64,000 nt of DNA, taken from a virus (taxonomy: Duplodnaviria; Caudoviricetes). Positions within the stretch are counted from its first letter, which is position 1; each line of letters starts with the position of its first letter. The notes below the pieces were generated by a model. That model was not told where the DNA came from. It did no database searches and was given only the letters and a program-made list of their open reading frames with translations. Of this stretch, positions 35,170 through 37,970 are shown piece after piece. The stretch spans positions 68,636-132,635 of IMG/VR virus record IMGVR_UViG_3300028914_000003, one strand, 5' to 3'. The translations under genes and the position numbers were made by a program.

Positions 35170-35640
35170 TCAGGCGCATTGGATGTCACAATTTGTGATT
35201 TCCAATCTGTTGTCAGACACGGGTGGCTTTTCAACCATCAGGTTCATGCCCAAGTCCTCTGAAAGCATATCTATTCCCTTGCGGATTCTCTGTATTGTAT
35301 CCTCCTTCGGATAACGCAGGCTGGTGACGTACTGGCGCAGCACCGAGGCGTTCATGCCGATGTACTTGGCAAAGGCCGTCACGTCGATGGGGTAGTAGTC
35401 GAAGAACGACCCCACGTCAAAGCGCAGGTCGAACTCTACGTCTGGGAACTCCTTGCCCTCCTTCGCCCACTCTTCCTTCTCTTCCTGCAAGCACAGCTTC
35501 AAGTCCTCTATGGCCTCACGCGACGTGCCGCCGAAGCCACCGAGACCTACATTTTCGATACTCTCAGGGCAGAACGCCGAGAAGTTCCTCTTCCCCTTGC
35601 CGCGCTCCACGATTGCCAACAGCTTTACCTTCTTCGTCAT
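35170..35640 (-). CDS. hicB: HicB-family antitoxin with C-terminal HTH
   Basis: AIVERG..FSAF..GFGGTSREAIEDL; FAKYIGMNASVLRQY. Confidence 0.85.
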   Translation of the reverse strand: MTKKVKLLAIVERGKGKRNFSAFCPESIENVGLGGFGGTSREAIEDLKLCLQEEKEEWAKEGKEFPDVEFDLRFDVGSFFDYYPIDVTAFAKYIGMNASVLRQYVTSLRYPKEDTIQRIRKGIDMLSEDLGMNLMVEKPPVSDNRLEITNCDIQCA

Positions 35641-35733: not shown

Positions 35734-35917
35734 TTAGAGCCCGAGTAACCTTTTTTCGAGAGTTTTCAGAAGTCCTGTCGGAACTTCCTGGGAACCGTGG
35801 CGCGGAACGTATCCGTATAAGCCCGTAATCGGACTATACCACTTGTCGTGTTCGCCACCGTGCCTGACCAAGCGGCATCCCGCCGCTCTCAGGCGTGCTA
35901 CAAATTTACTCTGTTTC
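35734..35917 (-). pseudogene. hicA: HicA toxin whose start codon is split by an IS insertion
   Basis: Frame KQSKFVARLRAAGCRLVRHGGEHDKWYSP..VPRHGSQEVPTG; the AT of its ATG lies at 37814-37815, beyond the IS. Confidence 0.88.
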
Positions 35918-35934
35918 TTGACATACTCCCACGG

Positions 35935-37083
35935 CTAAAGCCGAGGGATTCTTAGGTGCTTACGCCCCCGCACAGTCACCTTTCCAGGCTCCTGCGTCTT
36001 ACCAGGACTCCCCAACGAGGCAATGCCCTGCCTCAGAATATTACAAGCAGCATGAAGGTCGCGGTCGTGATGACGGCCACACTCAGGACAAGTCCACTCC
36101 CTGTCATGCAACGCTAAATCTTTATACACATGACCACAGTCACACAGCTTAGAGGACGGGAAGAAGCGGTCAACCTTCTGCACCTTCACACCGTACTTGC
36201 CTGCAAGATACTCCAGCTTGCGGACAAACTTTCCATGGGCGAGGTCCTGCATCTTGCGTCCCCACAGCGAGGTCATTCCAGTGAGCTGCAAGTCTTCGAT
36301 GCAGATGGTGTCGAAGCGGCGGCACAGGTCGTGCGCCAGCTCCCACTGCCAGTTGTCGCGGCGGTTGGTGATGAGCTCCTCCACACGGTTCTTCGCCCGT
36401 CGGGCAGCCTTGCGGTGGTTGCTGCCCTCCTGCTTCTTAGAGAGGCGGCGGTCGGCGGTGCGCTTCATGCCGAGAGCCTGCTTCAGATAGCGCGGCGACT
36501 GGATGCGCTCACCCGTGGAGAGCGTCATGTAGGTCTTCAGGCCGAAGTCGATGCCTACGGATGCACCATTATGTGTCTTTCCGATAGGCTCTCCCTTGGT
36601 CTCGATGAAGAGGTACACGAAGTATTCCCCGACGGGAGTGCGCTTCACGGCCACGTTCTTGATTTTGCCTACGCCGACATACGGACGGCTCAGCGAGAAC
36701 TTGAAGCGTTTCTTGATTTTGTTGATGGTGAGCACGTTCCCGTTCAGCGAGAAGCCGCCCTGCTTGAACATGAAGCTGCGGAAGCCGTCAGCCCGCTTGA
36801 ACTTGGGAGGCCGGACCTGAATATGCTGGAAGAAACGCTGGTAGGACTTGTCCTGACGCTCCAGTATCTCCTGCACGGTCTGCGAATGAAGACGGCTGCT
36901 CTTGCCGTACCAGCGCACCCACTTTCCCTTTATGCGGTTCACGTCGATGTACTTTCTGTACATACGATAGTACCGCTTCTGCAGGGCCAGCGCATGGTTC
37001 CATACCCACGATGCCTCACAGAGCATCGCGTCAAGGTGCTTCGTCTGCTTGGTCGTATAGAGCTTATACTTGTAGGCTATCAT
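35935..37083 (-). CDS. tnpB: TnpB RNA-guided endonuclease
   Basis: RuvC residues appear intact (GIDFG, IEDL, DRDLHAACNI); zinc finger CDCG..CPECG. Confidence 0.95.
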   Translation of the reverse strand: MIAYKYKLYTTKQTKHLDAMLCEASWVWNHALALQKRYYRMYRKYIDVNRIKGKWVRWYGKSSRLHSQTVQEILERQDKSYQRFFQHIQVRPPKFKRADGFRSFMFKQGGFSLNGNVLTINKIKKRFKFSLSRPYVGVGKIKNVAVKRTPVGEYFVYLFIETKGEPIGKTHNGASVGIDFGLKTYMTLSTGERIQSPRYLKQALGMKRTADRRLSKKQEGSNHRKAARRAKNRVEELITNRRDNWQWELAHDLCRRFDTICIEDLQLTGMTSLWGRKMQDLAHGKFVRKLEYLAGKYGVKVQKVDRFFPSSKLCDCGHVYKDLALHDREWTCPECGRHHDRDLHAACNILRQGIASLGSPGKTQEPGKVTVRGRKHLRIPRL

Positions 37084-37339
37084 GCGCTTCTATCAAATAT
37101 GGGGCAGCACTGCGCGTTGCTATGGCCATCTATGCGAAGCCACCGGGGCATTACTGCTACCCGACACGGTTACTGCCCCAATGGGGTTTGTTCCTTAATT
37201 TATGGGTACAAAAATAGCCGCTCGGCGGCGGCAACTCTCGTACCGCATAGATGTTTAAGCGTTGCAAAGGTAGGCATTTATTTTCGTCCTTGCAAATTTT
37301 CCGGCAAGAATTTATCTTCAAGCCATACAATTTATTGCG

Positions 37340-37786
37340 ATGGCCGACAGATTCAACTACAATTCTCACTGCGTTTACAACCTTGGCTAACATGTTATAT
37401 GGTGTCCGAAGTACCGCCGCAAGCTGCTCCAATGGGGCATCGACGAGCGGCTGAAAATACTGCTCGTGGAGAAGGCCGTCGCGATGGGCTGCCATATAGA
37501 GAAGATGGAAGTCATGCCCGACCATGTGCATATCTTCATCAAGACGCCACCAACCATATCGCTCGACAAACTGGTGCAGGGTCTGAAAGGCTATACTTCC
37601 AACATCCTGCGGCACGAGCGTCCGTGGTTGCGCAACCTGCCTTGCCTTTGGTCACGATCCTATTATGTGGAGAGTATCGGCCATATCTCGGAAGAGACAG
37701 TCCGACGATATATCGAAGACCAGAAAGAGACAGCAAACAGAAAAGCAAACAACAAACGGGCGGGGTCGCTTTCATCCCACAGCTAA
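37340..37786 (+). pseudogene. tnpA: Y1 transposase TnpA with a premature stop
   Basis: HCVYNLG*HVIWCPKYRR with TAA at 37388-37390; HUH motif DHVH and YIEDQ downstream in the same frame. Confidence 0.9.
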
Positions 37787-37850
37787 AGCAATGGGTATTC
37801 CCGCTCAAAATTCATAATGTAACAGATCACTTTTGGCTTAATTGCCGGTG

Positions 37851-37882
37851 CAAAGGTAACAAATAAGTTGCAAACCGCCAAA
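37851..37882 (-). promoter_or_regulatory. original hicAB promoter
   Basis: TTTG-N20-TACCTTTG upstream of the split ATG. Confidence 0.75.
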
Positions 37883-37970
37883 TCTTTTTGCAACTTTTTT
37901 GTTAGCAAGCATCATTTTTAACATTCCAGCATACAAGACAAGCCGCCCATCCTTGTATGCTCTAAACGTC

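What the first reader, a model, noticed from the sequence alone, without database searches (positions are those of the whole stretch)
35734..37882. IS605 element splits the ATG of the hicA toxin; its tnpA is dead while tnpB looks intact
Seen: removing 35918-37813 joins ..ACATTAT to GAAACAGAGT, giving ATG AAA CAG AGT and a complete 61-aa HicA behind a consensus promoter. TnpA has a TAA at 37388, where a Tyr is expected. TnpB keeps its three RuvC acidic residues. The HicA frame also continues in phase after the tnpB TAG, with no start codon near its N-terminus. Established: IS200/IS605 elements excise precisely, and the TnpB guide comes from the right flank. Inference: excision (needing TnpA in trans) would turn the toxin back on, and TnpB would target TTAT+GAAACAGAGTAAATTT, i.e. 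excised copies or sibling phages with intact hicA. This is either a locked toxin switch or an RNA-guided exclusion of relatives.
Basis: partly seen in the sequence, partly recalled or inferred. Interest (0 to 1): 0.75.

Follow-up and report, generated by a model that had tools for sequence, protein, structure and literature searches.

The report
Insertion sequence splits phage hicA start
A 1.9-kb mobile element has landed inside the start codon of a toxin gene (hicA) of a large gut phage. It has lost its own transposase but kept an RNA-guided nuclease aimed at the uninterrupted gene, which a 98%-identical sibling phage still carries; this is a clean natural example of a known kind of selfish element, not a new mechanism.

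Summary
Window 35918-37813 is a 1,896-bp IS608-like IS200/IS605 element. It sits 3' of TTAT, between the T and G of the hicA ATG, in a 132.6-kb phage with terminal repeats.

- **Ends:** eight independent copies fix them as TTAT|G...TCAA|. The left-end guide is AATA, and one relative with AAAG sits at TTAC.
- **tnpA:** it is intact except for a TAA where all relatives have Tyr or Phe. Its dN/dS of 0.09 says the stop is recent.
- **tnpB:** the RuvC triad is D179/E263/D342 and dN/dS is 0.10-0.21. A covarying structure about 118 nt long ends at the right end, as expected for an omegaRNA.
- **Empty allele (new here):** a Logan contig (L174) 98-98.6% identical in both flanks carries intact hicA. It matches the predicted TAM and 24 nt of guide exactly, and encodes the same 61-aa HicA.
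- **More distant relatives:** they have 8-14 guide mismatches, or they lack the TAM.

Best reading: an ordinary insertion into a dispensable toxin gene, now non-autonomous. It is expected to persist, and perhaps spread among co-infecting siblings, by TnpB-guided homing, which is published for plasmids. The "toxin switch" idea has no support. This scan earlier noted tnpB elements in hicA codon 5 of enterobacterial phage-plasmids.

The parts
37851..37894 (-). hicAB promoter and operator region. It holds the -7 box TACCTTTG (37851-37858), a TTTG about 20 nt upstream, and the inverted repeat GTTGCAAA-N12-TTTGCAAC (37867-37894). It now points into the left end of the insertion sequence.
   Evidence: The block is conserved in L002-L005 and L174-L178. 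Function as a promoter or HicB operator is inferred.
37814..37817 (-). TTAT, the insertion target and predicted TnpB TAM. Its last two bases (AT) are the first two bases of the hicA start codon.
   Evidence: Seven independent insertions of AATA-guide copies lie 3' of TTAT. The empty allele L174 reads ACATTATGAAACAG.
35918..37813 (-). The complete IS200/IS605-family element, 1,896 bp. The tnpB strand (minus) is the top strand. There are no terminal inverted repeats and no target duplication.
   Evidence: Boundaries come from comparison with L006, L008, L166-L173 and L179, and from the filled versus empty comparison with L174.
37776..37813 (-). Left end: 18 nt (GAATTTTGAGCGGGAATA, whose last four bases AATA form the left guide) followed by the imperfect hairpin CCCATTGC-TTTA-GCTGTGGG (37795..37776). 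The tnpA stop codon lies in the hairpin loop.
   Evidence: The geometry matches IS608 as described in PMC3201880. The guide AATA goes with TTAT and AAAG (L006) with TTAC.
37340..37786 (+). tnpA pseudogene (Y1 HUH transposase, 148 codons). A TAA at 37388-37390 replaces the conserved Tyr17. The HUH motif (HVHIF) and the SYYVES tyrosine region are otherwise intact.
   Evidence: (PF01797, 118 bits). The gene is called as a 100-aa fragment in other assemblies.
37101..37177 (-). A c4-2-like structured RNA element in the tnpB 5' leader, downstream of an internal -7 box TACCTTTG at 37265-37272.
   Evidence: Rfam RF02944 scores 29.9 bits here, and 42.2, 37.7 and 31.5 bits in L008, L006 and L166 (gathering score 41).
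35935..37083 (-). tnpB, 382 aa, an RNA-guided nuclease with an intact RuvC triad (D179, E263, D342) and zinc finger.
   Evidence: NF040570, 241 bits against a cut-off of 100; dN/dS 0.10-0.21.
35918..36035 (-). Predicted omegaRNA scaffold of four covarying helices that overlaps the tnpB 3' end. It includes the right guide GAAT (35951..35948), the right-end hairpin CCCTCGGC-TTTA-GCCGTGGG (35947..35928) and AGTATGTCAA (35927..35918).
   Evidence: 27 pairs, 95.3% of cells paired against 48% or less when slid, 19 pairs with compensatory changes, 0 of 500 shuffles as high.
35898..35917 (-). Predicted omegaRNA guide and target, GAAACAGAGTAAATTTGTAG. This is the G of the split ATG plus hicA codons 2-7 and the first base of codon 8.
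   Evidence: The position directly 3' of TCAA. It matches the empty allele L174 exactly, and the phage itself has no TAM-flanked copy. Guide use is inferred.
35734..35917 (-). hicA remnant: the third base of the start codon, 60 codons and the stop. It is undecayed.
   Evidence: It differs from intact hicA of L174 by one synonymous base.
35170..35640 (-). hicB-like antitoxin gene, 156 aa: an N-terminal HicB/dsRBD-like domain and a C-terminal Xre-type HTH. Its last 14 residues replace the family's YV(E) ending.
   Evidence: relatives named HicB by NCBI and JGI; Z 5-6 to HicB structures. There is no Pfam, NCBIfam or PHROG hit.

Best explanation
An IS608-like member of the IS200/IS605 family (divergent tnpA and tnpB, TTAT target) inserted by single-strand 'peel and paste' transposition 3' of the TTAT that overlaps the hicA start codon of a roughly 132.6-kb phage, probably one that infects Prevotella or other Bacteroidales.

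Shown:
- The insertion separates hicA from the first two bases of its ATG and from its promoter by 1.9 kb. No nearby in-frame start remains, so the toxin is very probably silent. The downstream hicB-like gene is kept.
- The element then lost its transposase through one recent nonsense mutation. Its ends, tnpB and a conserved 3' RNA structure are intact.
- An exactly matching TTAT plus 24-nt site exists in a 98%-identical sibling phage that has intact hicA.

Inferred:
- The element is now non-autonomous and could be moved only by a related TnpA supplied in trans. Intact TnpA proteins 88-92% identical exist in similar metagenomes.
- TnpB with its omegaRNA, guided by the first 16-20 nt after the right end, would cut any empty allele. 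That means an excision product or a co-infecting sibling genome.
- Recombinational repair from an IS-bearing genome would then copy the element back in. This is TnpA-independent homing or retention, as shown experimentally for IS605-family elements in bacteria and plasmids.

The choice of hicA is best explained by a TTAT at that spot together with the dispensability of a toxin gene, not by a regulatory purpose.
For: - Ends and target: with IS608 geometry per PMC3201880.
- Filled versus empty alleles with no duplication.
- HicA identity.
- tnpA stop at a conserved Tyr or Phe with low dN/dS.
- The same stop in other assemblies of this phage.
- TnpB intact and under purifying selection.
- omegaRNA-like covariation.
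- Guide matches the sibling 24 of 24, and the phage has no self-target.
- No suppressor tRNA, so the stops are real.
- Published homing and gene-drive behaviour: PMC13565253, which cites Meers 2023 and Mears 2025.
Against: - No expression or cleavage data exist, so TnpB activity, omegaRNA production and the TAM are inferred from sequence only.
- Only one empty-allele contig was found (1.3 kb, from a different sample). Co-occurrence of both alleles in one population is not shown.
- Exact-pattern scans of IMG/VR and JGI metagenomes found no empty junction.
- hicB expression after the insertion is unknown.
- Whether the sibling's allele is ancestral or an excision product cannot be told, because excision is seamless.
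Confidence: 0.7

Rival explanations
1. Passive, decaying insertion. The element landed in a dispensable gene and is on the usual path from an autonomous IS605 to a relic. On this view TnpB does nothing of consequence in this phage, and the filled and empty alleles merely reflect one old insertion in one lineage.
For: - Close relatives have already lost tnpA (L006) or most of it (L008).
- tnpB-only copies dominate the 60%-identity group.
- Only one IS copy is in the phage.
- The filled and empty alleles come from different samples.
Against: - tnpB shows purifying selection (dN/dS 0.10-0.21), and the catalytic residues are kept.
- The omegaRNA helices are maintained by compensatory changes.
- The 90%-identity cluster of this TnpB has 115 members in many contexts.
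- These signals describe the family rather than activity in this particular phage.
Confidence: 0.2
2. Locked toxin switch. The insertion is a reversible OFF state of hicA, and excision by a TnpA supplied in trans turns the toxin back on as a regulated or bet-hedging device.
For: - Excision would be seamless and would restore an undecayed hicA behind its promoter.
- The left and right ends are intact.
- Compatible TnpA proteins exist in similar samples.
Against: - The element's own transposase is dead.
- TnpB is predicted to cut the restored site.
- Nothing links excision to any signal.
- Restoring hicA next to hicB would only re-create a neutralised pair.
- No empty and filled mixture is documented within one sample.
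Confidence: 0.05
3. Adaptive toxin loss. Selection favoured knocking out hicA while keeping hicB as an orphan antitoxin, for example to neutralise a host or rival HicA, and the IS was just the mutagen.
For: - hicB stays open and is 96% identical to the sibling protein (alignment A2).
- This scan noted IS605-family elements in the 5' end of hicA in unrelated enterobacterial phage-plasmids (unchecked notes).
Against: - hicA itself shows no decay, with a single synonymous difference, so the event is recent and hicB conservation carries little information.
- No evidence shows that HicB acts alone.
- Every other relative examined keeps hicA intact.
Confidence: 0.04
4. Artefact. On this view the IS is an assembly chimera, or the TAA is a sequencing error.
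For: The source is a metagenome-derived record, and reads could not be inspected.
Against: - Both junctions fall exactly at TTAT| and TCAA|, as in seven or more other copies.
- The identical TnpB, with the same neighbouring genes, is on three contigs of 50-200 kb.
- The truncated 100-aa TnpA product is on record from two contigs drawn from JGI/IMG and ENA sources.
Confidence: 0.02

Closest known systems
IS608 / IS605 of Helicobacter pylori (IS200/IS605 family, IS605 group)
   Same: - Y1 HUH TnpA plus TnpB.
- Subterminal imperfect hairpins on one strand.
- The left cleavage site lies 18-19 nt 5' of the left hairpin, and the right cleavage site TCAA ends 10 nt 3' of the right hairpin.
- Four-base guides sit 5' of each hairpin (GAAT on the right; AAAG on the left in relative L006, which targets TTAC).
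- Insertion is 3' of a tetranucleotide with no duplication (PMC3201880).
- tnpA and tnpB are divergent, as I recall for IS605 itself; the scan note on ISEc46 also describes this layout as IS605-type.
   Different: - The target and left guide are TTAT and AATA instead of TTAC and AAAG.
- Both stop codons lie in the terminal hairpin loops.
- A c4-2-like RNA sits in the tnpB leader.
- The host is a Bacteroidales-type phage.
- tnpA carries a nonsense mutation.
- TnpB is only 60% identical to the nearest copies in reference genomes.
ISDra2 TnpB-omegaRNA and TnpB-mediated homing or gene drive (Karvelis 2021, PMC8612924; Meers 2023; Mears 2025, bioRxiv 10.1101/2025.02.20.638934, as summarised in PMC13565253)
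   Same: - TnpB domain set and RuvC triad (E 4e-35 to PDB 8bf8).
- A structured RNA overlaps the 3' end of tnpB and runs to the right end.
- The guide comes from the right flank, and the TAM equals the transposase target.
- The predicted target is the empty site.
- The dead tnpA parallels the TnpA-independent, TnpB-dependent spread reported for plasmids.
   Different: - Nothing is tested biochemically here.
- The TAM is TTAT rather than TTGAT.
- The replicon is a phage, for which homing between co-infecting genomes is so far only proposed (PMC13565253, Table 1).
tnpB-only or ISEc46-type elements inside hicA codon 5 of enterobacterial phage-plasmids (scan notes e1-207894 and e1-196440)
   Same: An IS200/IS605-family element with tnpB interrupts the extreme 5' end of hicA on a phage-type replicon and leaves hicB.
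   Different: - Different phylum, IS lineage and position (codon 5 versus inside the ATG).
- Here tnpA is still present as a fresh pseudogene, and a matching empty allele was found.
- Those notes were not re-checked here.
Free-standing homing endonucleases of T-even phages (Seg and Mob; localized marker exclusion)
   Same: The predicted outcome is the same: a phage-borne nuclease cuts the allele of a co-infecting relative that lacks the element, and repair copies the element in.
   Different: Recognition is RNA-guided and reprogrammed by the flank. The nuclease belongs to the RuvC/TnpB family, not the GIY-YIG or HNH families. The behaviour is not shown for this element.

Membership tests
IS200/IS605 family (IS605 group) | Y1 HUH transposase TnpA | tested here: met
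   PF01797 at 118 bits and NF033573 at 119 bits. The HUH motif and the C-terminal Tyr region are present. The gene is a pseudogene because of TAA at codon 17.
IS200/IS605 family (IS605 group) | Subterminal imperfect hairpins at both ends on the same strand, and no terminal inverted repeats | tested here: met
   The left hairpin is 37795..37776 and the right hairpin is 35947..35928, both on the minus strand. The right hairpin covaries across 25 copies.
IS200/IS605 family (IS605 group) | Insertion 3' of a specific tetranucleotide, without target duplication | tested here: met
   Seven independent TTAT sites. The filled versus empty comparison with L174 shows no gain or loss of bases.
IS200/IS605 family (IS605 group) | The cleavage site is specified by a 4-nt guide 5' of the hairpin foot | tested here: met
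   AATA goes with TTAT in seven copies, AAAG goes with TTAC in L006, and GAAT goes with TCAA at the right end. The rule is from PMC3201880. This is correlation only.
IS200/IS605 family (IS605 group) | Transposition through a single-stranded circle | not testable with these tools
   This needs an excision and integration assay with TnpA supplied in trans.
TnpB-omegaRNA (OMEGA) RNA-guided nucleases | TnpB domain architecture with the RuvC D-E-D triad and a zinc finger | tested here: met
   NF040570 at 241 bits (cut-off 100). Pfam HTH_OrfB, OrfB_IS605 and Cas12f1-like_TNB all match. D179, E263 and D342 align with ISDra2 D191, E278 and D361.
TnpB-omegaRNA (OMEGA) RNA-guided nucleases | A structured RNA that overlaps the tnpB 3' end and terminates at the right end | tested here: met
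   Four helices, 27 pairs, 19 of them with compensatory changes, 95% of cells paired against 48% or less when slid. No Rfam family matched. Transcription is not shown.
TnpB-omegaRNA (OMEGA) RNA-guided nucleases | TAM-dependent, guide-dependent DNA cleavage | not testable with these tools
   This needs an interference or in vitro cleavage assay.
HicAB type II toxin-antitoxin | HicA_toxin domain with the conserved His | tested here: met
   PF07927 at 39.5 bits against a cut-off of 27. The His of the xHD motif (H24) is invariant in the window, L174 and L002-L005. Its catalytic role comes from my knowledge of other HicA proteins.
HicAB type II toxin-antitoxin | A downstream HicB antitoxin with a partial RNase H-like N-domain and a DNA-binding domain | tested here: inconclusive
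   No Pfam, NCBIfam or PHROG hit. The AF2 model has pLDDT 87.8. Its N-domain matches HicB structures at Z 5.1-6.0 (3k6q, 6g1c, 6u0i, 6hpb) and its C-domain matches Xre-type HTH folds at Z 4.5-6. Relatives 63-73% identical are named HicB by NCBI and JGI. The operon position is conserved.
HicAB type II toxin-antitoxin | Toxicity of HicA and its neutralisation by HicB | not testable with these tools
   This needs expression tests.

The most novel reading that the evidence does not exclude
This may be a natural TnpA-independent, RNA-guided gene drive operating in a phage population. The transposase-dead element would spread by TnpB cutting the intact hicA start of co-infecting sibling phages and being copied in during repair, converting toxin-plus genomes to toxin-minus ones. 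Together with the scan's enterobacterial cases, the 5' end of hicA would then be a recurrent safe harbour for IS605-family elements on phage-type replicons.
Probability: 0.25. Interest if true: 0.65.

Novelty: new member of a known kind. Interest (0 to 1): 0.4.

Why it matters
TnpB homing has been shown in bacteria and plasmids. For phages it is so far only a proposal. This locus supplies a ready natural test case:
- a fresh tnpA pseudogene;
- an intact tnpB and omegaRNA;
- a defined TAM and guide;
- both the filled and the exactly matching empty allele in 98%-identical phages;
- a natural TAM-less allele (ACCATG) in more distant relatives that can serve as a control.

It also shows how a phage toxin-antitoxin pair can be reduced to an orphan antitoxin in one step. 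In addition, it documents a TTAT-targeting IS608-like lineage that is common in gut and rumen Bacteroidales viromes.

Tried and rejected
- **Stop-codon recoding:** this could have rescued tnpA (TAA) or fused TnpB to HicA (TAG). I rejected it because the phage has no tRNA genes (aragorn) and relatives' TnpB proteins end at the same RIPRL/RIHRL C-terminus as the window's.
- **Public phage records:** megablast of the locus found nothing.
- **Exact-pattern scans:** searches for the empty junction and for the tnpA stop site in IMG/VR and JGI metagenomes gave no hits. The empty allele was found only through a near-identical HicB protein in Logan.
- **Reference genomes:** the nearest TnpB is 60% identical, so no host copy or in-trans TnpA source could be pinned down.
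- **Rfam:** no omegaRNA family matched. A MIR5998 hit at 37856-37905 is just the promoter palindrome.
- **HicB family assignment:** no profile library matched, and the structural matches are only middling.
- **c4-2 literature search:** unproductive.
- in mid-session I placed the IS at 35919-37814.
Full report
**Context.** The window is bases 68636-132635 of a 132,635-bp IMG/VR virus record with direct terminal repeats, rated complete. The genome is 53% G+C, has no tRNA genes and uses Bacteroidetes-type TAnnTTTG promoters (32 in the window against 18 expected). Close homologues of its hicB-like gene occur in contigs labelled Prevotella sp.. The nearest genomic TnpB relatives are in Prevotella, Porphyromonadaceae, Paludibacteraceae and other Bacteroidales MAGs. 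The locus lies between a giant tape-measure and glycosyltransferase operon and a rightward block that begins with a 419-aa gene.

**The observation.**
- On the minus strand the text runs ...CTGTTACATTAT | GAATTTTGAGCGGG ... GGGAGTATGTCAA | GAAACAGAGTAAATTTG. TTAT is at 37817..37814, the element spans 37813..35918, and the G of the split ATG is at 35917.
- Deleting 35918-37813 gives ATG AAA CAG AGT and a 61-aa ORF.
- Residues 2-61 of that ORF match Pfam HicA_toxin above its cut-off and the PHROG 'toxin' family 353.
- tnpA (37340-37786, plus strand) has TAA at 37388-37390 within YNLG*HVIWCPKYRRK.
- tnpB (37083-35935, minus strand) is a full 382-aa ORF.
- The hicA remnant is in the tnpB reading frame after the TAG. 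The first in-frame start, TTG at 35871, would give a product lacking the first 16 residues.
- The in-phase arrangement has a one-in-three chance expectation. With no suppressor tRNA in the phage, and relatives' TnpB proteins ending at the same C-terminus, I treat it as coincidence.

**Element boundaries and family.** I collected independent copies through the TnpB and TnpA proteins.
- All close copies end ...GAAT-hairpin-AGTATGTCAA, after which the flanks differ (G, T, G, T...). All begin with G after TTAT.
- Seven independent insertion sites have TTAT immediately 5' of the left end and AATA immediately 5' of the left hairpin. These are the window, L166-168, L169/171, L170, L172/173, L008 and L179-182.
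- The one relative with AAAG at that place (L006) sits after TTAC.
- This follows the IS608 rule: cleavage sites are read by 4-nt guides 5' of the hairpin foot, with TTAC/AAAG about 19 nt upstream on the left and TCAA 10 nt downstream on the right (He et al. 2011, PMC3201880).
- Here the distances are 18 nt and 10 nt.
- The element is therefore an IS608-like IS200/IS605 member with divergent tnpA and tnpB and a TTAT target.
- Both stop codons lie in the loops of the terminal hairpins.

**State of the genes.**
- *TnpA.* Every intact relative has Tyr at the stop position, or Phe in one subgroup. Intact 148-aa proteins 88-92% identical exist in metagenomes, and L166 is a complete copy with both genes. 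Against those relatives the window's tnpA has dN/dS of about 0.09. The rest of the gene, including the HUH motif and the tyrosine region, is untouched. The stop is therefore a recent single hit.
- *The stop in other assemblies.* The truncated 100-aa product is on record from two contigs from JGI/IMG and ENA sources. The identical TnpB, with identical neighbours, is on three contigs of 50-200 kb. An assembly error is therefore unlikely, although reads were not available.
- *Close relatives.* They show later stages of the same path. L006 has no tnpA, and L008 keeps only its last 40-50 codons.
- *TnpB.* It hits NCBIfam guided_TnpB (241 bits against a cut-off of 100) and ISDra2 TnpB structures (E 4e-35). 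D179, E263 and D342 align with D191, E278 and D361. The zinc finger is present, and dN/dS is 0.10-0.21 against three relatives.

**Guide RNA.** Rfam has no matching family. An alignment of the last 230 nt of 25 diverse copies gives four helices in the final 118 nt or so (window 36035-35918).
- 95.3% of cells are paired, against 48% or less when partners are slid.
- 19 of 27 pairs show compensatory changes.
- None of 500 shuffles reached the observed covariation.
- Three of the four helices lie in coding sequence, so the covariation is best explained by an RNA, the expected omegaRNA scaffold.
- The last helix is also the DNA hairpin read by TnpA.
- By the established rule (Karvelis 2021, PMC8612924; Meers 2023), the guide is the 16-20 nt after TCAA, GAAACAGAGTAAATTTGTAG, and the TAM is the transposase target, TTAT.
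- The phage contains no TAM-flanked copy of this sequence. Its own copy is preceded by TCAA.

**The empty allele.** Pattern scans of IMG/VR and JGI metagenomes for the predicted junction found nothing. A protein search with the hicB-like product then found a 98%-identical protein (P0121) on a 1,295-bp Logan contig, L174 from SRR16020854.
- L174 aligns to the window at 97.9% over the 290 nt upstream of the insertion, including the start of the 419-aa gene.
- It aligns at 98.6% over the 693 nt downstream, and the 1,896 bp are simply absent.
- It reads ...CTGTTACATTATGAAACAGAGTAAATTTGTAGCACG... and encodes a 61-aa HicA identical to the reconstructed window protein, with one synonymous difference.
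- So the split gene has not decayed, there is no target duplication, and the predicted TnpB target (TTAT plus 24 of 24 nt) exists in nature in a sibling phage.
- More distant relatives would not be targets. L002-L005 keep TTATG but differ at 8-14 of 24 positions. L175-178 (87% identical) read ACCATG, which has no TAM, and have two guide mismatches.

**The partner gene.** The 156-aa downstream product has no profile hit.
- Its operon position after hicA is conserved in all relatives.
- Homologues 63-73% identical are named HicB by NCBI and JGI.
- A confident AF2 model (pLDDT 87.8) has an N-domain that matches HicB structures at Z 5.1-6.0 and an Xre-type HTH C-domain.
- I call it HicB-like, with membership formally inconclusive.

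**Mechanism.**
- *Shown:* the anatomy above.
- *Inferred:* hicA is silent, and the element cannot move itself. Its TnpB-omegaRNA would cut an empty site and so retain the element or copy it into co-infecting siblings. Such TnpA-independent, TnpB-dependent spread has been reported for IS605-family elements in plasmid populations (Mears et al. 2025). It has been proposed for phages as 'non-restorative homing' (review PMC13565253).
- *Why hicA:* the phage has 840 TTAT sites. Survival of an insertion at this one is most simply explained by the dispensability of a toxin gene.
- *The switch reading:* I found nothing that supports it.

**Comparison and novelty.** This is a new member, with a TTAT-specific lineage, of a well-understood family, and the predicted behaviour is already in the literature. 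This scan had earlier noted tnpB elements in codon 5 of hicA on enterobacterial phage-plasmids (I did not re-check those notes). The recurrence is a mild curiosity. The value of this locus is as a clean natural test case, with paired filled and empty alleles and a natural TAM-less control.

Noticed in passing
window 37101-37177 (-); L008:2409-2492; L006:2907-2984; L166:1628-1693: A c4-2-like structured RNA (Rfam RF02944) sits in the tnpB 5' leader of all four close IS copies. Scores are 29.9, 42.2, 37.7 and 31.5 bits against a gathering score of 41. By eye, the window and L006 differ by compensatory changes in one stem. Its role in an IS605-type element is unknown.
   Followed up: partly
window 37867-37894 and 37851-37858 (-): The inverted repeat GTTGCAAA-N12-TTTGCAAC overlaps the -33 region of the hicAB promoter and is conserved in all relatives, so it is probably the HicB operator. 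After the insertion this promoter reads into the IS, antisense to tnpA and sense to tnpB.
   Followed up: no
window 35170-35225 (-): The window's HicB ends ...PPVSDNRLEITNCDIQCA where the family ends ...PPVSYV(E). Homology with sibling L174 stops at about 35225, which suggests a mosaic junction next to the glycosyltransferase gene.
   Followed up: partly
window 37784-37786 and 35935-37937; family alignment A1: The tnpA stop codon lies in the loop of the left-end hairpin and the tnpB stop codon (35935-35937) in the loop of the right-end hairpin (CTTTAG). The tnpB arrangement is conserved across most of the family.
   Followed up: partly
L175:3700-3760 (also L176-L178): Relatives 87% identical have ACCATG instead of ATTATG at the hicA start. 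This allele has no TTAT, so it should resist both insertion and TnpB cleavage.
   Followed up: no
L008:2040-3000: A related IS copy in a 128-kb viral contig keeps only the 3' end of tnpA. It carries an extra 166-aa ORF between the c4-2-like element and tnpB.
   Followed up: no
L006:3970-4353: In a 140-kb viral contig, a tnpB-only relative with a TTAC target is inserted so that a 127-aa ORF on the opposite strand runs into its right end.
   Followed up: no
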